This document shows, piece after piece, positions 1-22,069 of a stretch of DNA of 48,729 nucleotides (position 1 is the stretch's first letter; each line of letters starts with the position of its first letter). The DNA is from an uncultured Candidatus Saccharibacteria bacterium. GTDB lineage: Bacteria > Patescibacteriota > Minisyncoccia > Sungbacterales > HO2-52-23. The DNA is taken from contig CAYJOT010000001.1 of assembly GCA_964371935.1 (NCBI GenBank), positions 1 to 48,729 of the forward strand, written 5' to 3'. The notes beneath the pieces are model-generated. The model made no database searches. It saw nothing but the letters and a program-made list of their open reading frames with translations, and had not been told where the DNA came from. The position numbers were made by a program, and so were the translations under genes.

Positions 1-55
1 ACGCCCAATAAATCCGGATAACGCTTGAGGTCTACGTATTACCGCGGGTGCTGGC

Positions 56-366
56 CAAAAATTTTACTTTTTGTTTTGGACTATATCATAATCCATTTGA
101 AAAAAATGGATCCCTAGCGTGTTATAACAGAATCCTTGAATCTGTTATCTGTCCCGTCGGGACAAGTCTCTGAGGCGCCCATGTTAAACACTCGGTGTTT
201 AACATGGTTGCCTGCTGATTCTCCATACGTAATCGGTCAGCGTTGTTAAACACTCGGTGTTTAACAATAGACCAATGCACCCTGATACCCGTATGGCATT
301 CCAGCATATAAGCTAAGTTATTCAATGCCGATTGCTCGGCAAGGACGCGCCGTCCCTTATGGGATC
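56..366 (-). ncRNA. 311-nt ORF-less group I intron in 16S, inserted after the U equivalent to E. coli U516
   Basis: Deleting 56-366 restores AACTACGT|GCCAGCACCCGCGGTAATAC. The insert follows a U and ends in G. In RNA order it carries P-like AUGCUGGAA (307-299), Q AAUCAGCAGG (220-211), R UCAGAGACU (173-165) and S GAUAUAGUCC (87-78). Confidence 0.8.
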
Positions 367-679
367 ACGTAGTTACCAACCTCTTATTCCACCGGTACGC
401 TCAATCCGGCCCAAAGGGCCGGACTTGTTCCCGGTGAAAAGCAGTTTACAGGCCGAAACCCTTCTTCCTGCACGCGGCGTCGCTCGATCAGGCTTTCGCC
501 CATTGTCGAATATTCTCGACTGCTGCCACCCGTAGGTGTACGAGCCGTGTCTCAGTCTCGTCGTTGGGGGCCGTGCTCTCACACCCCCTACCCGTCATTG
601 CCTTGGTGGGCCGTTACCTCACCAACAAGCTGATAGGACCTAGGCTCCTCTCAAAGTGTCCCGACGAATCGGGACTTTA

Positions 680-930
680 CCCTACACCTCTTTGGACTCT
701 TGACGAAATATATTGGATATGCTACAATAGCAAACAGAAGGGGGGTGATAATGGATGATGATGCCGTTGATGTTTGTTTGTATTATGGCGGTTGCCCTTG
801 TGGGCGCCACCGTCGTTACAACGGTTGACGGCTGGATGAATCCATAAATCCAGCGTCAACCTCGGTCCTGGGCATGACCTTACCAAAAACTGCCTTATTT
901 ATTTTGTCAAAAATCCAAAGAGGTATAGGG
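680..930 (-). other. ~250-nt expansion or intervening sequence replacing 16S helix 9 (V2 region)
   Basis: A 17-bp closing stem (930-914 CCCUAUACCUCUUUGGA with 696-680 UCCAAAGAGGUGUAGGG, one G-U pair) encloses ~217 nt with several internal hairpins. E. coli has only a ~10-nt hairpin here. The flanks align to conserved 16S sequence. Confidence 0.75.
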
Positions 931-1226
931 ACTATCGGGAATTAGTCCGCCTTTCGGCGGATTATGCCCGTCTTTGAGGTAGATGCCAGGGTATTACTAA
1001 CTCGTTCGCCACTAACCATATTCGGTATTGCTACCAAATATGATCCGTTCGACTTGCATGCCTTATCCACGCCGCCAGCGTTCATCCTGGACCAGGATCA
1101 AATCCTCTATAAAGGTTGGAATCCGCCAGATGGCGGACCAACCATACTAAATCGGAACAGCTGGAAAAAGATAATTCCAAACTGTTTTGGGATTCACAAA
1201 TTGTAAATTTGCTTTCCTTATCAGAC

Positions 1227-5573: not shown

Positions 5574-5607
5574 CAACATATTATGGCCGATCGGTTATGG
5601 ATTGTTG
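5574..5607. repeat. CGATCG-centred palindrome, copy D (class 2, imperfect)
   Basis: The sequence is CAACATATTATGGCCGATCGGTTATGGATTGTTG. It shares CCGATCGGTTATGRRTTGTTGA with copy E in direct orientation. It lies between the PaaX-like gene stop (5650) and the GH1 start (5510). Confidence 0.7.
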
Positions 5608-5649
5608 ACAGTCAAAATTCCATTTCCGTCGAAAAATTCTCGGATGATA

Positions 5650-6198
5650 CTATGTCTTTTGTATCGTCCCCCGATCTCGAATACTAAAAATGTGCACATG
5701 ATTTCTCACCCTCAGCACATCAAGAAAAGTTAAAAAATCTTCCGGCAGGGGAGCATGGCCAATCCATACGCTTTTTTGCAGTTGGGTAAAACCGGCTGCC
5801 AGCAGTTCTACACGAATTGCCCTCCGTTTACTTCGCTCTTTCTCCGGAATATCAAAAATTACCAAGCGCCCTATGCCATCCTTTTTGGGCAATAGTTCTC
5901 GCTTTTTTGTTTCTCCGATCTTCTGTTCTCCTTGTTTCGTCAGCCGCCACCGCGCACCTGAAGCCCTTCCCGATTTTTCGATCAAACCTTCTGTCTTGAG
6001 TCGTGAAAGAAGCACGGTAAAAGTTCTTTGAGTAACACGCCCCCGTGGATAGGTATTGAAAGCGCCCATGACACTCCTAAAACGTCGAAAACCGCCGCGC
6101 AAAGGGAACATAACATCGAGCATCCCTTCGCCTGCCTCGCTTAATTTTTCGAGAATACAGCGCGTAATAGTTTTGCGTACCCTCCTTTTCGTGTACAT
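5650..6198 (-). CDS. Winged-helix plus Cas2-fold (PaaX-like) DNA-binding protein, paralog 1
   Basis: A 182-aa ORF. The N-terminal part looks wHTH-like (TFTVLLSRLKTEGLIEK). The core LVIFDIPEKERSKRRAIRVELLAAGFTQLQKSVWIG resembles the Cas2/PaaX central beta-alpha-beta unit. It is paralogous to 18164-18718. Confidence 0.8.
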   Translation of the reverse strand: MYTKRRVRKTITRCILEKLSEAGEGMLDVMFPLRGGFRRFRSVMGAFNTYPRGRVTQRTFTVLLSRLKTEGLIEKSGRASGARWRLTKQGEQKIGETKKRELLPKKDGIGRLVIFDIPEKERSKRRAIRVELLAAGFTQLQKSVWIGHAPLPEDFLTFLDVLRVRNHVHIFSIRDRGTIQKT

Positions 6199-14215: not shown

Positions 14216-14770
14216 TCAACCACACCGAAATGATTTCCGATGCACCTCACACCTTCCAAATTTCCTAATCATCTCGCGATGCAGCTCGGTGCTATATCCT
14301 TTGTGCAAATCGAAACGGTACGCGGGATATTTTTTGTGGGTGCGCAGCATAATGCGGTCGCGGGTGACTTTGGCGATTATGGATGCGGCGGAAATAATGG
14401 GGATAAGTTCGTCGCCCCTGATGATAGTTTCGTGCGAAATGGGCCACGGCAGATGCAAGCTGCCGTCAAGTAAGGCATAGATATGCTTCGATTCCAGACT
14501 TAGTCTGGAAAATACCCTCCGTGCGCCTATCTGTGCGGCCTGGTAAATATTGATGCGATCGATCACTCCGGGCGATATGCGCGAGACAGTCCATTGGATA
14601 CGCGGATGGCCGGTCAGAAAATCAAACCATTCTTCGCGTTGCTTGACCGACAGCTGTTTGGAGTCCCTAATGCCTGCGAGCGCCCGCGCCGCAAGCCGCG
14701 GGGTCATGAGTACTCCGGCAACCACCACCGGCCCAGCAAGCGGCCCCCGTCCGGCTTCGTCTATACCCAT
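14216..14770 (-). CDS. rnhB: Ribonuclease HII
   Basis: The N-terminus is MGIDEAGRGPLAGPVVVAGV. The start is uncertain, with alternative ATGs at 14806 and 14809. The ORF-track start at 14848 would overlap the divergent dnaE start. Confidence 0.88.
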   Translation of the reverse strand: MGIDEAGRGPLAGPVVVAGVLMTPRLAARALAGIRDSKQLSVKQREEWFDFLTGHPRIQWTVSRISPGVIDRINIYQAAQIGARRVFSRLSLESKHIYALLDGSLHLPWPISHETIIRGDELIPIISAASIIAKVTRDRIMLRTHKKYPAYRFDLHKGYSTELHREMIRKFGRCEVHRKSFRCG

Positions 14771-14837
14771 GATCTTTCCACCACTTTTTTTATTTGCTTT
14801 GCGCATCATCGTCGTTGATAGTATCATGAAAGGCACA

Positions 14838-17800
14838 ATGAAATTCACCCATCTCCATGTCCACTCCCATTATAGCCTGCTTGACGGTTTGTCAAAAATC
14901 GACGAGCTGGTAAACCGCGCGGCGGAACTGGGCATGGACTCGCTGGCACTCACCGATCACGGCAATATGTATGGGGCTATCGAGTTTTATCAGAAATGCA
15001 AGAAAGCCGGAATCAAGCCTATTATCGGATGCGAGATGTACATTGCCGCCGGAAATATGCGGGACAAAAACCCGGGCGTGGATGACAAGCGGTATCATCT
15101 GACCGTGCTTGCCTCCTCGACCCAAGGATACCAAAATCTCATCAAGCTTGCGTCTGCCGCGCATCTCGAAGGTTTTTATTACAAGCCGCGCGTGGACAAA
15201 GATCTCCTTGCCAAATACTCGGCGGGACTTATCGCGCTCTCCGGCTGTCCGGCAAGCGAGATTTCGCGGGCGCTGCAATATAAAAAACCGGTCATTGCCG
15301 AAAAGCTTGTTCGTGAATACCAGGACATCTTTGGCAAAGAAAATTTCTATCTCGAGGTTCAGCCGCATAAGACCGCGGATCAGCCGCTTGTGAATGCGGG
15401 ATTGATCGCGCTCGCCCCAAAAGTTGGCGCCGAACTGGTTGCCACCAACGATATTCATTACACGCGAGCTGATGATGCGGACGCGCAGGATATTCTGGTT
15501 TCGGTACAGACCGGAAACCGAGTCCATGACGAAGACCGACTCACTATGAAAGGCACGGATCTCTCGATGCGCTCAGGCAGCGAGATGGCATTACTTTTTC
15601 CGGACACGCCCGAGGCGATTGCAAATACGGTTGAGATCGCGGATCGCGTGCACATTGACATAGAGCTTGGCAAAACCCACCTGCCGCATTTTGACGTGCC
15701 AAAGCAATACGATCCGGACTCATATCTAAAAGAGCTTTGCGAGCGGGGTGTTTTGCGACGCTACCAAATTCCTGTATCGGAACTTGAAGCGCGCCCTGAG
15801 TATGCACAACTCAAAGACCGGCTCGCCTACGAGCTTCGCGTGATTAAGGAAACGGGATTTGCGTCGTACTTTTTGATCGTGCAGGATTTTGTGAACTGGG
15901 CAAAAGAGCACCATATCGTAGTGGGTCCGGGGCGCGGATCCGCGGCCGGATCCCTCGTTTCTTACCTTCTTAATATTATAAACATTGATCCGCTCAAGTA
16001 TAATCTCCTCTTTGAGCGTTTCTTAAATCCGGAGCGCATCTCCATGCCCGATATTGATATTGATTTTGCCGATACGCGGCGCGACGAGGTGATTGAGTAT
16101 GTTGCGCAAAAATACGGGCGCGACCACGTGGCGCAGATCATCACGTTCGGCACCATGGCGGCGCGCGCGGCAATCCGCGATACGGGCCGGGCGCTTGGCA
16201 TTGCGTACGGCTTCTGCGACCAGCTTGCCAAACTCATCCCGTTCAACCCGACACAAGGCACGAAAGTCGGCTGGCTCAAAAAATCGCTCGAAACCGTAGG
16301 CGAACTCAAAGGCCTCTACGAGCGCGACCCTGAAGTGAAACGGCTGATTGACGCCGCCATCAAATTAGAGGGCGTTGCGCGCCATGCATCCACGCACGCA
16401 TGCGGCGTCGTGATGTCGCCCCGTCCACTGCAGGAATACGTGCCGCTGCAGCTTGCCACCAAGCACGGCGAGAAGAAAAATGGCGCCAGAGAAAATCAGA
16501 TTGTTGTCACACAATATGATATGAAAGCAGTCGCAGATCTCGGTTTGTTGCAAATGGATTTTCTCGGTCTCCGCAACTTGAGCATTATTGAGCATGCCTT
16601 GCGCCTGATCGAGCAAACTCACGGCACCCGAATCGCCATTGAAGATATCGCGCTCGACGATCCGGCCGTCTTCAGATTGTTTCAACGCGGAGAAACAACC
16701 GGCCTGTTCCAGTTTGAGTCGGGTGGGATGCGCCGCTATCTGAAAGAGCTGAAGCCCACCGAGCTTGAAGATTTGATCGCCATGGTGGCGCTGTACCGCC
16801 CCGGACCTATGGAGTTGATCCCTTCCTACATCAAGCGCAAGCAAAAACTTGAGCGCGTGGAGTATCTGCATCCGAAACTCGCGCCCATCCTGGGCAACAC
16901 CTACGGTATCGGCGTGTACCAAGAACAGATGATGCAGATCACCCGCGACCTGGCAGGGTTCAACCTGTCAGAGGCCGACACCATGCGCCGTGCCATCGGC
17001 AAAAAAATAAAATCACTCCTCGACGAGCAGGGCGAGAAGCTTATTCGCGGCATGATCAAAAACGGCATTGACGAGCGCACCGCCAAGGCGATCTGGGAAC
17101 TCTTTCCGCCGTTCGCGCGCTACGGCTTCAACCGGTCGCATGCGGCATGCTACGCGCTCATCGCCTACCAAACCGGCTGGCTCAAGGCGCATTACCCAAC
17201 CGAGTTCATGACCGCGACGCTTGCCGCCGAAAGCACCGATGTCGAGAAGATCGCATTTTTTGTGGAGGAGGCGCACACCATGGGTATCGAAGTCCTTGGC
17301 CCCTACGTCAACGAGAGCTTTGCAAGCTTTGCCATGGTCGCGGACAAAAAAATCCGCTTTGGCCTCGGCGCCATCAAAAATGTCGGGTCAAATATCGTTG
17401 ATGCGATCATTACCGAGCGCGAAGCCCGCGGCCGCTTCTCTTCCCTTACCGATTTTGCCGAGCGCGTAAAGCACAAAGATTTCAACAAAAAGTCGCTTGA
17501 GTCGCTCATCAAGTGCGGGGCGCTGGACGAGCTTGGCGAGCGCAACCAACTCCTTGCTAATCTCGAGACCATACTCGAATTCAATCGCGAGACGCAAAAA
17601 GCCCAGAGCGGAGGTCAGGCAAGTTTATTCAGCATGGCACCTGAAGTGCAACTGGCATCCTTTCGCCTCAAACCCGCGGACCCGGCGGAAAAGCGCGACC
17701 GGCTACAGTGGGAACGCGAACTTCTCGGACTGTATGTAAGCGAACACCCGTTTCAGGATTATGCCGAAAAATTTAAATCGAAAAACGTGATAGCGCTCAA

Positions 17801-18071
17801 AGATCTCACGGCCAATATGCGCAATCAGAAAGTTTTCGTCGGCGGTTTGGTCAGCGGCATCCAAAAAATAGTTACCAAGTCCGGAGAGCCAATGTTATTC
17901 GTCAAACTGGAAGACATAGCCGGCAGGACCGAGATACTGGTGTTTCCCAAGACACTCGCAAAAAACCCAGCGGTCTGGCAGGAAGAAAAAATACTCCTCG
18001 TCCGCGGCCGGGTCTCGGACAAAGACGGCGCCCCGAAGATACTATGCGAGGATGCAGTGGAAATGATTTAA
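14838..18071 (+). CDS. dnaE: DNA polymerase III alpha subunit
   Basis: It begins with the PHP domain MKFTHLHVHSHYSLLDG and continues as a full-length DnaE-like sequence. An alternative ATG lies at 14826. The ORF-track N-terminal extension is antisense to rnhB. Confidence 0.95.
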   Translation: MKFTHLHVHSHYSLLDGLSKIDELVNRAAELGMDSLALTDHGNMYGAIEFYQKCKKAGIKPIIGCEMYIAAGNMRDKNPGVDDKRYHLTVLASSTQGYQNLIKLASAAHLEGFYYKPRVDKDLLAKYSAGLIALSGCPASEISRALQYKKPVIAEKLVREYQDIFGKENFYLEVQPHKTADQPLVNAGLIALAPKVGAELVATNDIHYTRADDADAQDILVSVQTGNRVHDEDRLTMKGTDLSMRSGSEMALLFPDTPEAIANTVEIADRVHIDIELGKTHLPHFDVPKQYDPDSYLKELCERGVLRRYQIPVSELEARPEYAQLKDRLAYELRVIKETGFASYFLIVQDFVNWAKEHHIVVGPGRGSAAGSLVSYLLNIINIDPLKYNLLFERFLNPERISMPDIDIDFADTRRDEVIEYVAQKYGRDHVAQIITFGTMAARAAIRDTGRALGIAYGFCDQLAKLIPFNPTQGTKVGWLKKSLETVGELKGLYERDPEVKRLIDAAIKLEGVARHASTHACGVVMSPRPLQEYVPLQLATKHGEKKNGARENQIVVTQYDMKAVADLGLLQMDFLGLRNLSIIEHALRLIEQTHGTRIAIEDIALDDPAVFRLFQRGETTGLFQFESGGMRRYLKELKPTELEDLIAMVALYRPGPMELIPSYIKRKQKLERVEYLHPKLAPILGNTYGIGVYQEQMMQITRDLAGFNLSEADTMRRAIGKKIKSLLDEQGEKLIRGMIKNGIDERTAKAIWELFPPFARYGFNRSHAACYALIAYQTGWLKAHYPTEFMTATLAAESTDVEKIAFFVEEAHTMGIEVLGPYVNESFASFAMVADKKIRFGLGAIKNVGSNIVDAIITEREARGRFSSLTDFAERVKHKDFNKKSLESLIKCGALDELGERNQLLANLETILEFNRETQKAQSGGQASLFSMAPEVQLASFRLKPADPAEKRDRLQWERELLGLYVSEHPFQDYAEKFKSKNVIALKDLTANMRNQKVFVGGLVSGIQKIVTKSGEPMLFVKLEDIAGRTEILVFPKTLAKNPAVWQEEKILLVRGRVSDKDGAPKILCEDAVEMI

Positions 18072-18163: not shown

Positions 18164-18718
18164 ATGAAATATGGTGCCCTAACAAAAGCCATTCTTGAGC
18201 GCCTTGCTGAATCAGGCAAGGGCATGATTGAGACGCTCCTGTCCCCGCAGCACCCGAAGGCAAAATTTACTCGGACCGTATTGAGTGCTTATGATACACG
18301 TTACTCTTCTCATCCTGCGGCAAAACATGCCCTCTCCGCCACGCTGTGCCGCCTGAAAAAACAAGGACTGGTTGCAAGCACCGGACCGAAAAAGAAGACG
18401 GAATGGACAATTACCAAAGAGGGTAGAAAATTCTTAAAACACCCCCCACTCCATACAACGAGTAGCGCATATGAACTTCCTCCCGAAGACAATATCATTC
18501 GCCTCGTTACTTTCGATATTCCGGAAAAAGAGAAAAGGAAGCGCCGATGGCTTCGGGCCGAACTACTCTCATGTGGTTTTAGTCCTCTTCACAAAAGCGT
18601 GTTTACCGGAAAGCGGCCTCTGCCGGACGGCTTTATAAAAAATATTGACCGGCTCGGTTTGAACAAGTACACCCATATCATCGGCATTGAAAAATCAGGC
18701 ACTCTTGGCCAAAGATAG
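18164..18718 (+). CDS. Winged-helix plus Cas2-fold (PaaX-like) DNA-binding protein, paralog 2
   Basis: A 184-aa ORF with ALSATLCRLKKQGLV (wHTH-like) and LVTFDIPEKEKRKRRWLRAELLSCGFSPLHKSVFTG. It aligns with 5650-6198. Confidence 0.8.
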   Translation: MKYGALTKAILERLAESGKGMIETLLSPQHPKAKFTRTVLSAYDTRYSSHPAAKHALSATLCRLKKQGLVASTGPKKKTEWTITKEGRKFLKHPPLHTTSSAYELPPEDNIIRLVTFDIPEKEKRKRRWLRAELLSCGFSPLHKSVFTGKRPLPDGFIKNIDRLGLNKYTHIIGIEKSGTLGQR

Positions 18719-18739
18719 CCGGTACAATCGGGTATATTT

Positions 18740-18781
18740 TATATCACTGTTCTGACCGATCGAACAAGATAGTGATAGAAA
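18740..18781. repeat. CGATCG-centred palindrome, copy B (class 1)
   Basis: The sequence is TATATCACTGTTCTGACCGATCGAACAAGATAGTGATAGAAA. It matches copy A at 39/42 positions and starts 22 nt after the paralog 2 stop. Confidence 0.85.
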
Positions 18782-18860
18782 TCCCTTTGCTGGTCTCCTG
18801 TCGATTGTACACAACCAAAACTGCTGCATGTCTCTTGCGCGCAAGAACGGCCACGTGCCA

Positions 18861-18890
18861 TTGACACCATGATCGAGTATTTACTACTAT
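18861..18890 (+). promoter_or_regulatory. Candidate promoter of the Thr-leader transcript
   Basis: TTGACA (18861-18866), an 18-nt spacer, then TACTAT (18885-18890). The leader ATG is 12 nt downstream. A perfect 14-bp palindrome TCTTGCGCGCAAGA lies at 18833-18846. Confidence 0.5.
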
Positions 18891-18902
18891 ACCCTCATAC
18901 GT

Positions 18903-18968
18903 ATGAAAATAAGCAGAAGCCAAACAACGACCACTACGACCGACATAAGACCCTCTGATTCGAGGTAG
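18903..18968 (+). CDS. Candidate leader peptide MKISRSQTTTTTTDIRPSDSR with six consecutive Thr codons
   Basis: The ATG is at 18903. Thr codons ACA ACG ACC ACT ACG ACC occupy 18924-18941. The UAG stop at 18966-18968 lies inside a hairpin segment. The ORF is too short for the ORF track. Confidence 0.45.
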   Translation: MKISRSQTTTTTTDIRPSDSR

Positions 18969-18990
18969 TGGTTTTGTTAGGAGAATAATA

Positions 18991-19034
18991 AAACAAACCC
19001 CCACAACCCTCGACTCGGGGGTTGTTTCTTTTTT
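18991..19034 (+). terminator. Intrinsic terminator, proposed attenuator segments 3:4
   Basis: AAACAAACCCCC (18991-19002) pairs with GGGGGTTGTTT (19017-19027) with one bulged A, followed by CTTTTTT (19028-19034). The HAD gene ATG follows at 19035. Confidence 0.75.
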
Positions 19035-19579
19035 ATGGATAAAGTTTTTACTAACATCTTCTTTGATTTTGACAGCACTCTCATACGAGGTGAGGGTTTG
19101 GATTTGCTTGGCGACTTGCGTGGTGTGGGAAAAAAGTACGAAAGATGACTGAGTCGGCAATGAATGGCGTAGTTCCAATGGAACTGGTCTTTAAGCAAAA
19201 GGTTGACCTTATCGCTCCCACATTATCCGATGTACACAAAATAAGTATGCAATGCGCGGACTTGTTGGTGGAAGATGCGAAGGGAATTGTTGGCGCCTTT
19301 CATGCACTCGGCAAGAAAGTATACGTTCTCTCTTCAAACTTTCACCACATTATTGACCCAGTTGCGGCAATCCTTGCCATACCGCAAGAGCGAATTATTG
19401 CGAATGATCTCTACTTTGACAAGGCGGGAAATTATCACGGCTTTAATCATGTCTCTCCTTTATGTTGCGGTTCCGGGAAAGCCGTCATGCTTCAGAAATA
19501 CGCTAAGAGCGGAGAACGCTGCGTGTTTATAGGAGACGGGAGTACCGATCTTTATGATACTTACCCCGGCCGAGATTAA
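19035..19579 (+). pseudogene. HAD-superfamily phosphatase (SerB/ThrH-like), frameshifted in an A6 run and C-terminally short
   Basis: Frame A reads MDKVFTNIFFDFDSTLIRGEGLDLLGDLRGVGKK, which includes HAD motif I, and then stops. Frame B continues VRKMTESAMNG...FIGDGSTD, which includes motif IV. The frames join if one A is added to AAAAAA at 19130-19135. Confidence 0.7.
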
Positions 19580-19785
19580 CCAGTTGGGTAAAATTGGATT
19601 AAGGAGTCCTACAACCTCGTCTTAAGAGACTTTCGCCTTCTCAAAATGGGCGCGAAGCCACACCTGCGGGCAAGGAGTCTCTGTTATCTTGGCTTCGACG
19701 TGAAGTTGAACAGTGTATACATGCACGACCTCCTGCGATTCGTGATTTGTTTCGGATAGTTAACCGGGCATGGACGAGTTCGGAT

Positions 19786-20118
19786 ATGCCTCGCGTATAC
19801 GCGCCAGAAACTATTCGCGCCGCTCGCTTCATTGTGGATAACTTCAGAGACCACACGGAAAAAGAGGAGTCGCGCGATTGGCTCGCCTTTGCCTTTGAAC
19901 TTGAGGCGTGTCTCAGTTGTATCGAATACTCATGGCCACTCAATGTCACAAGTTACGGCGTGTATAAAGGATGCTGGGTTGAAGTCGGCAGATTGCCGAT
20001 TGCAAAAATCCAGAGTACGGAACTCGTAGTTGTGAAGCGAGTGCTTGCCGAACTGATGAACATCAGAACCAAAGGCTTCGCGCCGATCATCGTGAATGAG
20101 TGCGGAGATTCTCACTGA
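19786..20118 (+). CDS. Hypothetical protein (110 aa)
   Basis: An ORF starting at an ATG (MPRVYAPETIRAARF...). No recognisable motif. A terminator follows at 20279-20320. Confidence 0.45.
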   Translation: MPRVYAPETIRAARFIVDNFRDHTEKEESRDWLAFAFELEACLSCIEYSWPLNVTSYGVYKGCWVEVGRLPIAKIQSTELVVVKRVLAELMNIRTKGFAPIIVNECGDSH

Positions 20119-20278
20119 CGTAGACATGCGGCAGATATTGGCGATTGAAGTTTTGCCCCATGTTGGATATTATCACCCCGTCACGTACTTACCGGTGCTT
20201 CTTCTTCCCGAATACTCCTGCGGTGCAGTCATGAAAGCGATGTATGATCGACGGTAGTCCTTCCCTGACAGTCAGTAC

Positions 20279-20320
20279 GGCTCGCTGAGATTATATCAAC
20301 GCGAGCCCTCCCTTTTTATT
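20279..20320 (+). terminator. Intrinsic terminator upstream of thrS
   Basis: GGCTCGC (20279-20285) pairs with GCGAGCC (20301-20307), followed by CTCCCTTTTTATT. Confidence 0.6.
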
Positions 20321-20344: not shown

Positions 20345-22069
20345 ATGAAAAATCTTGAACATATTCGCCATTCGTTGGCACATTTGCTTGCGGCATCGGT
20401 ACTGGAGTTGTGGCCCAATACGAAGCATGCGATAGGACCGGCGATTGCGGACGGGTTTTATTTTGATTTTGAGTTTGGGCAGCCGCTTTTGGAAAGCGAT
20501 TTAGCGAAAATTGAGGCAAAGATGCGGGAATTGCTGCCTACGTGGGAGAAATTCGAGCGCAGAGAAATGAGTAGAGAAGACGCAGAGGAATTCTACAAAG
20601 ATAATCCTTACAAACGCGAGCTTATTGATGAGTTTGAACAAAAGGGAGAAGTAATCACTTTCTATAAATCCGGGCTGTATCAAGATCTCTGCCGCGGAGG
20701 GCATGTGGGGGATATTAAAGATATTGATCTGGATGCGTTCAAGCTTACCCGGATTGCGGGCGCGTATTGGCGCGGCAGTGAAAAAAAACCCATGCTCACG
20801 CGGATCTACGGGCTGGCGTTTTCGACTAAAGAAGAACTGGAGCAGCATCTTGCACTGATGGAAGAAGCGAAAAAACGAGATCATAAAAAACTCGGGCCAG
20901 AGCTTGATTTGTTTACCTTTTCCGAATTGGTCGGGCCGGGACTGCCGCTCTGGACCCCAAAAGGAGCGCTTTTGCGCGATATACTCGACAATTTAGTCTG
21001 GAAACTCCGCAAGCAAAAGGGATATGAGCGCGTAGATATTCCGCACATCGCCAAAAAAGATTTGTACGAAACCAGCGGGCACTGGGATAAGTTTAAGGAC
21101 GATCTTTTTAGAATCACTACGCGCGAGGGGCACTTGTTTGCCATGAAGCCCATGAATTGTCCGCACCACGCGCAGATTTATGCCCGAAAACAGTGGAGCT
21201 ATCGCGAACTTCCGCAGCGCTACGCAAGCACCACCAAAGTATACCGCGATGAGCAATCCGGCGAACTGGCCGGGCTTTCGCGCGTGCTTTCCATTACGCA
21301 GGACGATGCGCATGTTTTTTGCCGCCAGGGCCAGATTAAAGAAGAAATGGGAAAGATATGGGATATTATTACCATGTTCTATAACCAGATCGGGTTTACT
21401 CTTGATATACGCCTTTCCTTGCGCGATCCCAAAGAGCCGGAAAAATATCTTGGCAGTCCCGCAGTTTGGGAAGCCGCGGAACAAATACTCCGCGAACTCG
21501 TAAAAGAAAAAGGCGCAGTCGCTATTGAAGCGCCCGGCGAAGCCGCATTTTATGGACCGAAGATCGACTTCATGGCGCATGACTCGCTCCGGCGCGAATG
21601 GCAGGTTGCGACCATTCAGCTCGATATGAATCAGCCGGAGCGGTTTGATCTCTACTGCATTGACGAGAGCGGCAAAAAAGAACGCATAGTCATGATACAC
21701 GCCGCGATCATGGGATCAATCGAGCGGTTTCTCTCCATCCTTATCGAGCACTATGCGGGCGTGTTTCCCTTTTGGCTGGCGCCGGTGCAGGTTGCAATTT
21801 TGCCGGTGAGCGAAAAATTTCAGGAGTACGCAGAATCAATTTTGCAAAACTTGCACGAGCATGATATCCGCGCGGAACTTGACGCATCCAACGAAACGCT
21901 CGGCAAAAAAATCCGGGCGGCCGAACTGCAAAAAATCCCCTACCTGCTTGTTATCGGCCAGCGCGAACAGGAATCGTACACTGTTTCGGTGCGCGAGCGC
22001 GGCATTGGCGATTTGGGCGCAATGACTGTAGATGAGTTCCTCGCCGTATGCGACAACGCCAAAAATTGA
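20345..22069 (+). CDS. thrS: Threonyl-tRNA synthetase (no N-terminal TGS domain)
   Basis: It starts in the SAD/editing-type region (HIRHSLAHLLAASV) and has a class II catalytic core plus an anticodon-binding domain. Length 574 aa. Confidence 0.93.
   Translation: MKNLEHIRHSLAHLLAASVLELWPNTKHAIGPAIADGFYFDFEFGQPLLESDLAKIEAKMRELLPTWEKFERREMSREDAEEFYKDNPYKRELIDEFEQKGEVITFYKSGLYQDLCRGGHVGDIKDIDLDAFKLTRIAGAYWRGSEKKPMLTRIYGLAFSTKEELEQHLALMEEAKKRDHKKLGPELDLFTFSELVGPGLPLWTPKGALLRDILDNLVWKLRKQKGYERVDIPHIAKKDLYETSGHWDKFKDDLFRITTREGHLFAMKPMNCPHHAQIYARKQWSYRELPQRYASTTKVYRDEQSGELAGLSRVLSITQDDAHVFCRQGQIKEEMGKIWDIITMFYNQIGFTLDIRLSLRDPKEPEKYLGSPAVWEAAEQILRELVKEKGAVAIEAPGEAAFYGPKIDFMAHDSLRREWQVATIQLDMNQPERFDLYCIDESGKKERIVMIHAAIMGSIERFLSILIEHYAGVFPFWLAPVQVAILPVSEKFQEYAESILQNLHEHDIRAELDASNETLGKKIRAAELQKIPYLLVIGQREQESYTVSVRERGIGDLGAMTVDEFLAVCDNAKN

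What the first reader, a model, noticed from the sequence alone, without database searches (positions are those of the whole stretch)
18833..19034. Thr-codon leader peptide with alternative hairpins and a U-tract terminator: a candidate thr-type transcription attenuator
Seen in sequence, in six parts. (1) A good promoter, TTGACA-18-TACTAT (18861-18890), is followed 12 nt later by a 21-codon ORF (18903-18968), MKISRSQTTTTTTDIRPSDSR. (2) That ORF has six consecutive Thr codons (18924-18941) that use all four ACN codons. (3) Segment 1 (18929-18937, GACCACTAC, inside the Thr run) pairs over 9 bp with segment 2 (18965-18973, GTAGTGGTT), and segment 2 contains the UAG stop. (4) Segment 2 extended (18968-18978, GTGGTTTTGTT) can instead pair over 4+6 bp with segment 3 (18992-19004, AACAAACCCCCAC). 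(5) Segment 3 also forms the 5' arm of a terminator, pairing with 19017-19027 (GGGGGTTGTTT), followed by CTTTTTT. (6) The next ATG (19035) starts a SerB/ThrH-like HAD gene, and thrS lies 1.3 kb downstream on the same strand. Established knowledge: this is the logic of ribosome-mediated attenuation, as in E. coli thrL, whose leader also starts MKRIS and is Thr/Ile rich. Inference: Thr-tRNA charging controls read-through here. I am not aware of leader-peptide attenuation having been described in CPR-type genomes, which are usually poor in amino-acid biosynthesis. The element is invisible to a 60-aa ORF cutoff.
Basis: partly seen in the sequence, partly recalled or inferred. Interest (0 to 1): 0.8.

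Follow-up and report, generated by a model that had tools for sequence, protein, structure and literature searches.

The report
Threonine-sensing leader-peptide attenuator in a CPR bacterium
A tiny threonine-rich gene and its switchable RNA hairpins form a classical "ribosome-sensed" on/off switch, here found as a conserved new family in the poorly known Patescibacteria (CPR), although in this genome the genes it once controlled have decayed.

Summary
The promoter, the 21-codon ORF with six Thr codons, the hairpins and the U-tract are all present at the stated coordinates. Comparative evidence supports the attenuator reading. Fifteen distinct loci carry a promoter, a 15-21-codon Thr-run ORF starting 6-12 nt after the -10 box, and a terminator ending 0-3 nt before a HAD-IB phosphatase gene (HAD identity down to about 42%).

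The pairing scheme needs revising. The terminator is 19003-19025. The antiterminator pairs the ORF end (18953-18971) with 19001-20, that is, with the terminator's 5' arm, loop and 3' arm.

- Constrained folding gives P1 plus terminator when free, the antiterminator with a ribosome on the Thr codons (11/13), and the terminator with a ribosome at the stop (13/13).
- Both the antiterminator and the terminator helices show compensatory changes.
- It is not a member of Rfam Thr_leader (15.5 bits against a threshold of 55).

In this window the HAD gene and its roughly 465-aa partner are pseudogenes, and thrS adjacency is not conserved. In relatives, a paralogous second attenuator is fused in frame to the HAD C-terminus as a poly-Thr tail. 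Similar Thr leaders precede thrS in two other CPR loci. No transcript or experimental data were available.

The parts
18861..18890 (+). Sigma-70-type promoter: TTGACA (18861-66), 18-nt spacer, TACTAT (18885-90). The predicted start is about 18896-98, so the leader mRNA is nearly leaderless (5' UTR of about 5-7 nt, no SD).
   Evidence: Homology with L081 begins at the -35 box. The -35/-10 pair is found in 15 of 17 leaders, with the ATG 6-12 nt after the -10; L108 (TTGACA-17-TACAGT, ATG 11 nt on) was read by eye, and L086 is the exception.
18903..18968 (+). Leader ORF of 21 codons plus UAG: MKISRSQTTTTTTDIRPSDSR*
   Evidence: An ORF with an in-frame Thr run is kept in all relatives although the ATG-to-Thr distance varies (12-27 nt, always a multiple of 3). 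The stop always lies at the antiterminator/P1 junction, and it stays there even where the frame shifted (UGA in L092 and L109).
18924..18941 (+). Regulatory run of six Thr codons (ACA ACG ACC ACT ACG ACC), the proposed ribosome stalling site.
   Evidence: Relatives have 4-8 Thr codons.
18920..18937 (+). Segment 1: the 5' strand of hairpin P1, lying inside the Thr codons.
   Evidence: MFE fold. P1 domain energy -21.4 kcal/mol. 91% of cells are paired across 14 leaders, but the helix is nearly invariant.
18953..18981 (+). Segment 2: the ORF end, the UAG and the following bases. 18965-81 is the 3' strand of P1. 18953-71 (CUCUGA-UCGAGG-UA-GUGG) is the 5' strand of the antiterminator.
   Evidence: pair list. 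Covariation. The RNAalifold consensus of 13 leaders is this antiterminator.
19001..19020 (+). The 3' strand of the antiterminator: CCAC (19001-04), CCUCGA (19008-13) and UCGGG (19015-20). It covers the terminator's 5' arm, loop and part of its 3' arm.
19003..19034 (+). Intrinsic terminator: stem ACAACCCUCG/CGGGGGUUGU (19003-12 with 19016-25), loop ACU, then the tract UUUCUUUUUU (19026-34), which ends directly at the HAD ATG.
   Evidence: -14.7 kcal/mol, z = -3.0. The helix is 91% paired, with 4 pairs showing compensatory changes across 15 leaders.
19035..19601 (+). Pseudogene of a HAD-IB (SerB-like) phosphatase. It has a 1-nt deletion near 19127, an internal deletion of about 110 nt after 19552, and has lost its C-terminus.
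19615..20248 (+). Remnant of the cassette's second gene, a roughly 465-aa family without Pfam or NCBIfam models. Only residues about 146-308 and 369-417 survive.
   Evidence: Family and structure.

Best explanation
This is a ribosome-mediated (leader-peptide) transcription attenuator that reads the supply of charged tRNA-Thr.

Transcription starts about 6 nt before the AUG of a 21-codon ORF, so the leader mRNA is near-leaderless. Three states follow.

1. No ribosome. The Thr codons (18920-37) pair with the stop-codon region (18965-81) to form P1. The terminator 19003-25 plus its U-tract then forms, and transcription ends just before the HAD start codon.
2. Thr-tRNA plentiful. The ribosome runs to the UAG (18966-68) and covers 18953-81. 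The terminator forms again.
3. Thr-tRNA scarce. The ribosome stalls on the six ACN codons. It masks the 5' strand of P1 but leaves the ORF end free. That segment (CUCUGA-UCGAGG-UA-GUGG) pairs with CCAC..CCUCGA-CUCGGG, which is the terminator's 5' arm, loop and part of its 3' arm. It does so before the 3' arm can close the hairpin, so RNA polymerase reads through.

Shown here: the sequence features, their conservation, covariation and in-silico energetics. Inferred: translation of the ORF, stalling at the Thr codons, termination at the U-tract, and the response to Thr.

The ancestral targets are a two-gene cassette, a HAD-IB phosphatase and a roughly 465-aa protein of unknown function. In this window both targets are pseudogenes. 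The switch here is therefore structurally intact but probably a relic.
For: Conservation:
- Fifteen distinct HAD loci, with HAD identity down to about 42%, carry the full arrangement. This is a promoter, an ATG 6-12 nt after the -10 box, a 15-21-codon ORF with 4-6 Thr, a stop at the GAGGUAG or UUGAG motif, a GC hairpin and a U-tract ending 0-3 nt before the HAD ATG.
- The flanking genes differ between loci, and homology with L081 begins at the -35 box.

Three-state constrained folding:
- Free RNA gives P1 plus the terminator.
- A ribosome on the second Thr codon removes the terminator from the MFE in 11 of 13 leaders.
- A ribosome at the stop codon restores the terminator in 13 of 13.
- With the transcript cut before the 3' arm, 3-8 nt of the 5' arm (at least half) are already paired in all 13.
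- Shuffling the spacer rarely abolishes the terminator (0-8% in 9 of 13 leaders), and the observed energy gain is matched by 0-1 of 200 shuffles in 7 leaders.

Covariation:
- The antiterminator is 85.7% paired, against 32-58% when the partner strand is slid. Six of its pairs show double changes, for example CG to UA at two positions and UA to CG at a third.
- The terminator is 91.4% paired against 32-54% slid, with 4 compensatory pairs.
- RNAalifold on 13 leaders returns the antiterminator as the consensus structure.

Window energies: P1 -21.4, terminator -14.7, full antiterminator -24.7 kcal/mol.

Evidence for translation:
- The frame is kept despite variable spacing.
- The stop codon is re-created (UGA) where the spacing changed by a number of bases that is not a multiple of three (L092, L109).
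- A paralogous element sits in frame at the end of the HAD ORF. It gives 27-30 bits to the leader model at E of about 1e-3, and the same three-state logic holds in 7 of 12.
- Poly-Thr tails and intergenic terminators are present or absent together.

Thr-rich near-leaderless leaders with a hairpin and U-tract also precede thrS in L029 and L073.
Against: - There is no transcript, Term-seq, ribosome-profiling or reporter evidence. Everything rests on sequence and thermodynamic models.
- In the window itself the antiterminated and terminated stalled states are nearly isoenergetic (-29.3 against -28.5 kcal/mol; 13 of 200 shuffles do as well).
- In L081, L088, L108 and L029 the terminator stays in the stalled-state MFE. 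Those cases need a kinetic, co-transcriptional argument.
- The P1 strand that encodes Thr is almost invariant at the nucleotide level, so Thr-codon conservation is confounded with RNA pairing.
- My helix registers were anchored on the best complementarity, which biases the pair counts upward.
- The leader ORF has no SD. Translation therefore relies on leaderless or near-leaderless initiation, which has not been shown for this lineage.
- The regulated genes are not recognisable Thr-pathway genes, and they are pseudogenes here.
Confidence: 0.8

Rival explanations
1. A translation-independent riboregulator. The P1, antiterminator and terminator switch would be set by a protein, a small ligand or an uncharged tRNA. 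On this view the ACN run is conserved only because it forms the 5' strand of P1.
For: The Thr-coding strand of P1 (AACCACUAC) is nearly invariant, third codon positions included, and P1 shows little true covariation. The ORF has no SD. T-box-type control of aminoacyl-tRNA synthetase genes by uncharged tRNA is established in other bacterial phyla (general knowledge, not tested here).
Against: - An AUG lies 6-12 nt after the -10 box and is in frame with the ACN run in every lineage, despite ATG-to-Thr distances of 12-27 nt.
- No in-frame stop occurs before the junction.
- The stop is re-created as UGA when the register changes.
- Thr codons outside P1 vary synonymously.
- A paralogous element lies in frame at the 3' end of a real protein gene.
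- No Rfam family, T-box included, matches at gathering score.
Confidence: 0.07
2. Mainly translational control. The hairpin next to the HAD AUG would occlude initiation, and its 3' arm carries GGGGG or GAGGG, a possible SD. Leader translation or stalling would open it, without regulated termination.
For: The HAD AUG follows the hairpin and U-tract by 0-3 nt and has no separate SD. The 3' arm contains GGGGG or GAGGG about 13 nt upstream of the AUG.
Against: A U-rich tract of 6-9 U directly after a GC-rich stem is conserved in nearly all leaders, which is the signature of intrinsic termination. The extended antiterminator also pairs part of the 3' arm, so it would not free the SD-like bases. The two modes could coexist.
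Confidence: 0.08
3. An independent small-protein gene, encoding a Thr-rich peptide with its own function, followed by its own terminator. It would not be a sensor for the downstream genes.
For: The ORF is conserved in length and has a Thr-rich core. Leader peptides with trans functions are known (peTrpL, PMC7298713, from the abstract).
Against: Outside the Thr run and the RNA-paired codons the peptide sequence is not conserved (MKISRSQ, MRQSLR, MNKIFL and so on). The ORF end is complementary to the terminator, with covariation. The element always abuts the next gene's AUG.
Confidence: 0.04

Closest known systems
E. coli / enterobacterial thr operon leader thrL (Rfam RF00506 Thr_leader)
   Same: A short ORF with a run of Thr codons. 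A 1:2 hairpin, a 2:3 antiterminator and a 3:4 terminator with a U-tract. The logic of stalling versus reaching the stop is the same.
   Different: - There is no detectable homology: 15.5 bits against a gathering score of 55, E = 2.2.
- No Ile codons are required.
- The leader ORF is leaderless or near-leaderless, with no SD.
- The antiterminator's 5' strand is the ORF end plus the stop codon, and it pairs across the terminator's 5' arm, loop and 3' arm.
- The targets are not thrABC but a HAD-IB phosphatase and an uncharacterised protein.
- The host is Patescibacteria.
Leaderless leader-peptide attenuators of Deinococcus deserti (PMC4007540)
   Same: The leader peptide is translated from an AUG at or 1 nt from the transcription start. 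They were predicted upstream of amino-acid biosynthesis and aminoacyl-tRNA synthetase genes. This parallels the thrS-linked Thr leaders in L029 and L073.
   Different: Different phylum, and no sequence relationship was tested. The Deinococcus cases were found by dRNA-seq, whereas here only sequence is available.
Leader-peptide attenuators predicted in Actinobacteria (PMC1262725) and the ilvB uORF of Corynebacterium (PMC10272879)
   Same: They are comparative-genomics predictions of ribosome-mediated attenuation outside Proteobacteria and Firmicutes.
   Different: Those control canonical biosynthetic operons (as listed; I did not read the papers in detail). None is from CPR.
T-box leaders of thrS and other aaRS genes (Firmicutes and others)
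   Same: They sense the same physiological signal, tRNA-Thr charging, through a terminator/antiterminator switch.
   Different: A T-box binds uncharged tRNA directly, is more than 200 nt long and has a conserved T-box motif. No Rfam T-box hit was found in the window or the relatives.

Membership tests
Ribosome-mediated (leader-peptide) transcription attenuators (trp/thr/his/leu type) | Short leader ORF with a cluster of codons for the sensed amino acid | tested here: met
   21 codons with six consecutive Thr. Relatives have 4-8 Thr in 13-21 codons.
Ribosome-mediated (leader-peptide) transcription attenuators (trp/thr/his/leu type) | Intrinsic terminator (GC stem plus U-tract) between the leader ORF and the first regulated gene | tested here: met
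   19003-25 plus UUUCUUUUUU, -14.7 kcal/mol. It is conserved, with 4 compensatory pairs.
Ribosome-mediated (leader-peptide) transcription attenuators (trp/thr/his/leu type) | Antiterminator mutually exclusive with the terminator | tested here: met
   18953-71 with 19001-20, -24.7 kcal/mol. 85.7% paired, with double changes. It is the RNAalifold consensus.
Ribosome-mediated (leader-peptide) transcription attenuators (trp/thr/his/leu type) | Geometry: a ribosome on the regulatory codons frees the antiterminator strand; a ribosome at the stop codon, or no ribosome (1:2 hairpin), blocks it | tested here: met
   Constrained folding: the antiterminator forms in 11 of 13 stalled states, the terminator in 13 of 13 at the stop, and P1 plus terminator when free. 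This is in silico only, and in the window the two stalled states differ by just 0.8 kcal/mol.
Ribosome-mediated (leader-peptide) transcription attenuators (trp/thr/his/leu type) | Leader ORF is translated, and read-through rises when the cognate aminoacyl-tRNA is limiting | not testable with these tools
   No transcriptome, ribosome-profiling or reporter data. The only indirect evidence is frame and stop-codon conservation.
Ribosome-mediated (leader-peptide) transcription attenuators (trp/thr/his/leu type) | Regulated genes act in supply or use of the sensed amino acid | tested here: inconclusive
   - The HAD-IB phosphatase is SerB-like: 102-109 bits, below the equivalog cutoff of 144. Its ThrH score is 13 bits.
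- The partner protein has no family. Foldseek gives only weak hits to free serine kinase, SbnI and ParB-N (E 0.14-1.5).
- Similar leaders precede thrS in L029 and L073.
Rfam RF00506 Thr_leader (enterobacterial thrL) | Covariance-model score at or above the gathering threshold (55 bits) | tested here: not met
   15.5 bits, E = 2.2, at 18907-19028.
T-box riboswitch | Match to the T-box covariance model (specifier loop plus T-box antiterminator motif) | tested here: not met
   No T-box hit at gathering score in the window or in 5 relatives, and none up to E = 10 in 18700-19100.

The most novel reading that the evidence does not exclude
Patescibacteria may use a portable, leaderless Thr-codon attenuator as a general Thr-starvation switch, in three settings.

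1. In front of a HAD-IB phosphatase.
2. Again as a paralogous copy fused in frame to that enzyme's C-terminus. The poly-Thr tail is the sensor, and the last codons pair with the next terminator. The end of a full-length enzyme ORF thus acts as the 'leader peptide' for the next gene.
3. In front of thrS.

The controlled HAD plus roughly 465-aa cassette (possibly a ParB/Srx-fold small-molecule kinase) would then be an undescribed threonine supply or salvage route in organisms thought to lack amino-acid biosynthesis.
Probability: 0.35. Interest if true: 0.8.

Novelty: new member of a known kind. Interest (0 to 1): 0.62.

Why it matters
Leader-peptide attenuation is a textbook mechanism. I found no report of it in Patescibacteria/CPR: three full-text searches returned nothing. 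This family is conserved, shows covariation and is unrelated to the Rfam Thr leader. It indicates that these reduced, largely unculturable bacteria couple transcription to translation and monitor tRNA-Thr charging. It also marks an uncharacterised two-gene cassette as Thr-responsive, which gives a concrete handle on its function. The in-frame C-terminal version found in relatives would be an unusual way to build an intercistronic attenuator. Finally, the case shows that elements below ORF-calling cutoffs can be recovered by comparative analysis.

Tried and rejected
- Rfam membership. The window has no hit at gathering score, and Thr_leader and Phe_leader score only 15-19 bits. It is not a member of a known family.
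- T-box. None was detected. I suspected a T-box upstream of thrS in L013, but Rfam did not confirm it.
- Programmed -1 frameshift at A_AAA_AAG (19127-33) in the HAD gene. I rejected this. Alignment with L081 shows a simple 1-nt deletion a few bases upstream plus a deletion of about 110 nt, so it is a pseudogene.
- Minus-strand ORF 18744-19178 (144 aa). It has no Pfam hit, and the region upstream of the -35 box is not conserved in L081. I treat it as spurious.
- Control of thrS by this leader in the window. This is not supported. thrS adjacency is absent from the other cassette loci, and a stable terminator-like hairpin (20279-20307, then CUCCCUUUUU) lies between them.
- Identity of the roughly 465-aa protein. 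Pfam, NCBIfam, and PDB sequence and profile searches gave nothing. Foldseek gave only weak hits to free serine kinase, SbnI and ParB-N. The 'DGxHR-like' reading of the invariant CDTDGTHR motif is from memory. The L013 GCS2-like protein is unrelated to this family.
- The 'terminator-forbidden' energies came from a faulty constraint, and I ignored them.
- The MAFFT alignment of whole leaders (A3) misaligned the distant members. I replaced it with motif-anchored gapless blocks (A5, A7), which bias slightly towards pairing.

Full report
**1. What is in the window**

- TTGACA (18861-66), an 18-nt spacer and TACTAT (18885-90).
- An ATG 12 nt later opens a 21-codon ORF, 18903-18968, MKISRSQTTTTTTDIRPSDSR*. 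Its six Thr codons are ACA ACG ACC ACT ACG ACC.
- There is no Shine-Dalgarno sequence. With a start about 6-7 nt after the -10 box, the mRNA would have a 5' UTR of only about 5-7 nt.

RNAfold of 18897-19040 gives -37.8 kcal/mol (z = -2.75 against 200 shuffles). The fold has two modules.
- A long hairpin, P1, pairs the Thr codons (18920-37) with the stop-codon region (18965-81).
- A 10-bp hairpin, ACAACCCUCG/CGGGGGUUGU (19003-12 with 19016-25, loop ACU, -14.7 kcal/mol), is followed by UUUCUUUUUU. This tract ends at the ATG at 19035.

**2. Context**

- Upstream lie dnaE (14550-18071) and a PaaX/Cas2-like gene (18164-18718). Downstream lie thrS (20345-22069) and miaA.
- The window ends in a 16S rRNA gene with a large insertion.
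- Its ThrS is at most 66% identical to any species representative. The best matches are Doudnabacteria, Saccharibacteria, Paceibacterota, Peribacteria and Uhrbacteria. The genome is therefore Patescibacteria/CPR.
- The reading frame at 19035 is a HAD-IB phosphatase, but it is broken. Compared with the intact 247-aa homologue P0001 (84% identity) it has a 1-nt deletion near 19127, an internal deletion of about 110 nt, and has lost its C-terminus.
- Directly after it, 19615-20248 holds fragments (residues about 146-308 and 369-417) of a roughly 465-aa protein family.
- The same lesions occur in three other public assemblies, so they are not assembly errors.

**3. Relatives**

I fetched every HAD homologue I could reach. 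In 15 distinct loci, with HAD identity down to about 42%, the gene is preceded by the same arrangement.
- TTGACA-16/18-TAnnnT.
- An ATG only 6-12 nt after the -10 box (35 nt in L086).
- A 15-21-codon ORF with 4-6 Thr.
- A stop inside a conserved GAGGUAG(UG) or UUGAG motif.
- A GC-rich hairpin and a U-tract ending 0-3 nt before the HAD ATG.

Only L090 lacks it. The neighbouring genes differ from locus to locus, and homology between the window and L081 begins exactly at the -35 box. What is conserved is therefore a cassette: leader, HAD, and the roughly 465-aa gene.

The peptide is not conserved outside the Thr run (MKISRSQ, MRQSLR, MNRQSR, MKNINQ, MNKIFL and so on). Three properties are nevertheless kept.
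- The frame holds despite ATG-to-Thr distances of 12-27 nt.
- No early stop occurs.
- The stop position is maintained. In L092 and L109 the spacing changed by a number of bases that is not a multiple of three, and a UGA replaces the UAG at the same place.

**4. The switch**

The conserved ORF end (window CUCUGA-UCGAGG-UA-GUGG, 18953-71) is complementary to CCAC..CCUCGA-CUCGGG (19001-20). That target is the terminator's 5' arm, loop and part of its 3' arm (-24.7 kcal/mol in the window).

I folded each leader with a ribosome footprint imposed as unpaired bases.
- With no ribosome, P1 plus the terminator form.
- With the A site on the second Thr codon, the terminator is absent from the MFE in 11 of 13 leaders and the antiterminator forms.
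- With the ribosome at the stop codon, the terminator forms in 13 of 13.
- With the transcript cut before the terminator's 3' arm, at least half of the 5'-arm bases (3-8 nt) are already paired in all 13.
- Dinucleotide shuffles of the spacer seldom abolish the terminator (0-8% in 9 of 13).
- In L085, L104, L106, L089, L105, L103 and L091 the observed stabilisation is matched by 0-1 of 200 shuffles.

The weak cases are the window (0.8 kcal/mol preference), L081, L088, and later L108 and L029. These would depend on co-transcriptional kinetics.

**5. Covariation**

I used motif-anchored gapless blocks.
- The antiterminator is 85.7% paired, against 32-58% when the partner strand is slid. Six of its pairs show changes on both sides, for example CG to UA and UA to CG next to the invariant GAGG:CCUC core.
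- The terminator is 91.4% paired, against 32-54% slid, with four compensatory pairs.
- P1 is 91% paired but nearly invariant, so it says little either way.
- RNAalifold on 13 aligned leaders returned the antiterminator as the consensus structure.

A covariance model built on that alignment recovered several elements outside the training set.
- Non-training leaders: L087 at 52 bits, the second L013 leader at 44 bits, L109 at 39 bits.
- Elements at the 3' end of the HAD genes, at lower scores: L086, L103, L085 and L104 at 27-30 bits, E of about 1e-3 to 7e-3.

**6. A second attenuator inside the HAD gene**

Most full-length homologues end in a poly-Thr tail such as ...TTTTTTTTNSPGSW*. The tail is followed by a terminator.
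- The last codons (for example CCGAGUUCUUGG in L085, CCGGGUUCUUGG in L088) are complementary to that terminator's loop and 3' arm.
- The same three-state folding works in 7 of 12 loci.
- Homologues without the tail (P0001/L081, L109, and the window's remnant) also lack the intergenic terminator.
- In L013 the two leaders stand in tandem without a HAD gene, upstream of a GCS2-like gene.

The window has lost this second element through the deletion that fused the two pseudogenes.

**7. What is regulated**

- The phosphatase is HAD subfamily IB. It is SerB-like at 102-109 bits, below the equivalog cutoff of 144, and it is not ThrH at 13 bits.
- The partner family has 18 members, all unnamed, and no Pfam, NCBIfam or PDB sequence match.
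- An AlphaFold model has pLDDT 88.6. It gives only weak Foldseek hits, led by free serine kinase (5x0b), its homologue 1vk1, SbnI and ParB N-domains (E 0.14-1.5).
- SerK and SbnI use the ParB fold as an ATP-binding module (PMC12704722).
- I treat 'small-molecule kinase of the ParB/Srx fold' as a lead, not a result.

**8. thrS**

The adjacency in the window is probably incidental.
- Other cassette loci have no thrS nearby.
- A stable hairpin at 20279-20307 followed by CUCCCUUUUU lies between the remnant and thrS.

However, Thr-rich near-leaderless ORFs with a hairpin and U-tract lie directly upstream of thrS in two other CPR loci.
- L029: MLAITTTTTTTTA*.
- L073: MKITNTTTTTITRI*.

This fits a wider use of Thr-codon attenuation in this group.

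**9. Comparison with known systems**

- The logic is that of the trp/thr attenuators.
- It is not a member of Rfam Thr_leader (15.5 bits against 55), and it is not a T-box.
- Leaderless leader peptides have a precedent in Deinococcus deserti (PMC4007540).
- Full-text searches combining leader peptide or attenuation with Patescibacteria or candidate phyla radiation returned nothing. That is consistent with novelty for this group but does not prove it.

**10. Verdict**

- It is a new family of a known kind of switch, in a phylum where none was described.
- In this window it is intact (98 bits to the family model) but sits in front of decayed genes.
- All mechanistic steps beyond sequence, conservation and energetics are inferred.

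Noticed in passing
L085 935-1036; L104 912-1013; L103 908-1007; L088 963-1062; L086 4270-4371; L091 3687-3784; L092 3714-3807 (absent from the window): The HAD-IB genes of most relatives end in an in-frame poly-Thr tail (for example TTTTTTTTNSPGSW*) followed by a terminator. The last codons are complementary to that terminator. This looks like a second Thr attenuator, paralogous to the 5' leader, embedded in the 3' end of an enzyme ORF and controlling the next gene.
   Followed up: partly
window 19035-19601 and 19615-20248: Both cassette genes are pseudogenes here. The HAD-IB gene has a 1-nt deletion near 19127 and a deletion of about 110 nt. The roughly 465-aa gene has lost about 145 N-terminal residues and further segments. 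The closest relative, L081, keeps HAD intact but has the second gene split over four frames.
   Followed up: yes
window 19127-19133: The HAD frame break lies at a sequence that happens to read A_AAA_AAG in the zero frame, the same slippery heptamer as in dnaX. Alignment with L081 shows a plain 1-nt deletion, and other lesions are present, so programmed frameshifting is unlikely.
   Followed up: yes
L029 2116-2237 and L073 5856-5974: Thr-rich near-leaderless leader ORFs (MLAITTTTTTTTA*, MKITNTTTTTITRI*) with a hairpin and U-tract lie directly upstream of thrS in a Paceibacterota MAG and a Peribacteria MAG. They score weakly against the leader model (22.4 and 20.8 bits).
   Followed up: partly
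L013 4292-4510, 4588-5580, 5600-5920: Two Thr leaders stand in tandem (MRNRRFTTTTLNFLFSR*, MNLFILTTTTTTTNSPPV*) with no HAD gene between them. A GCS2-like 330-aa gene follows. After that comes a structured leader of about 250 nt ending in a terminator in front of thrS, which has no Rfam match.
   Followed up: partly
L085 1011-1065 region; also L104, L106, L088, L103, L089, and L081 about 5600-5680: A strongly conserved long hairpin (GUGCUGAUGAUUG...CAAUCACCAGCAC) sits between the second terminator and the SD of the roughly 465-aa gene. It persists in L081, where the attenuator is gone. Its function is unknown.
   Followed up: no
P0012-P0029 (for example L085 1151-2584): A rare family of about 465 aa (18 clusters, no Pfam or NCBIfam model) is always paired with the HAD-IB gene. 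It gives a confident AlphaFold model and weak structural similarity to free serine kinases (SerK, SbnI) and ParB N-domains. It has an invariant CDTDGTHR motif.
   Followed up: partly
window 20279-20318: A stable hairpin (-16.2 kcal/mol for the 20262-20330 fold that contains it, z = -3.2) followed by CUCCCUUUUUAUU lies between the pseudogene remnant and thrS. It overlaps a promoter-like site (CTGACA-18-GATTAT, 20265-94). It is probably the cassette's terminator.
   Followed up: partly
window 1-1113 (minus strand): The 16S rRNA gene fragment spans 1113 nt for model positions 1-561. That implies about 550 nt of inserted sequence, as is often seen in CPR 16S genes.
   Followed up: no
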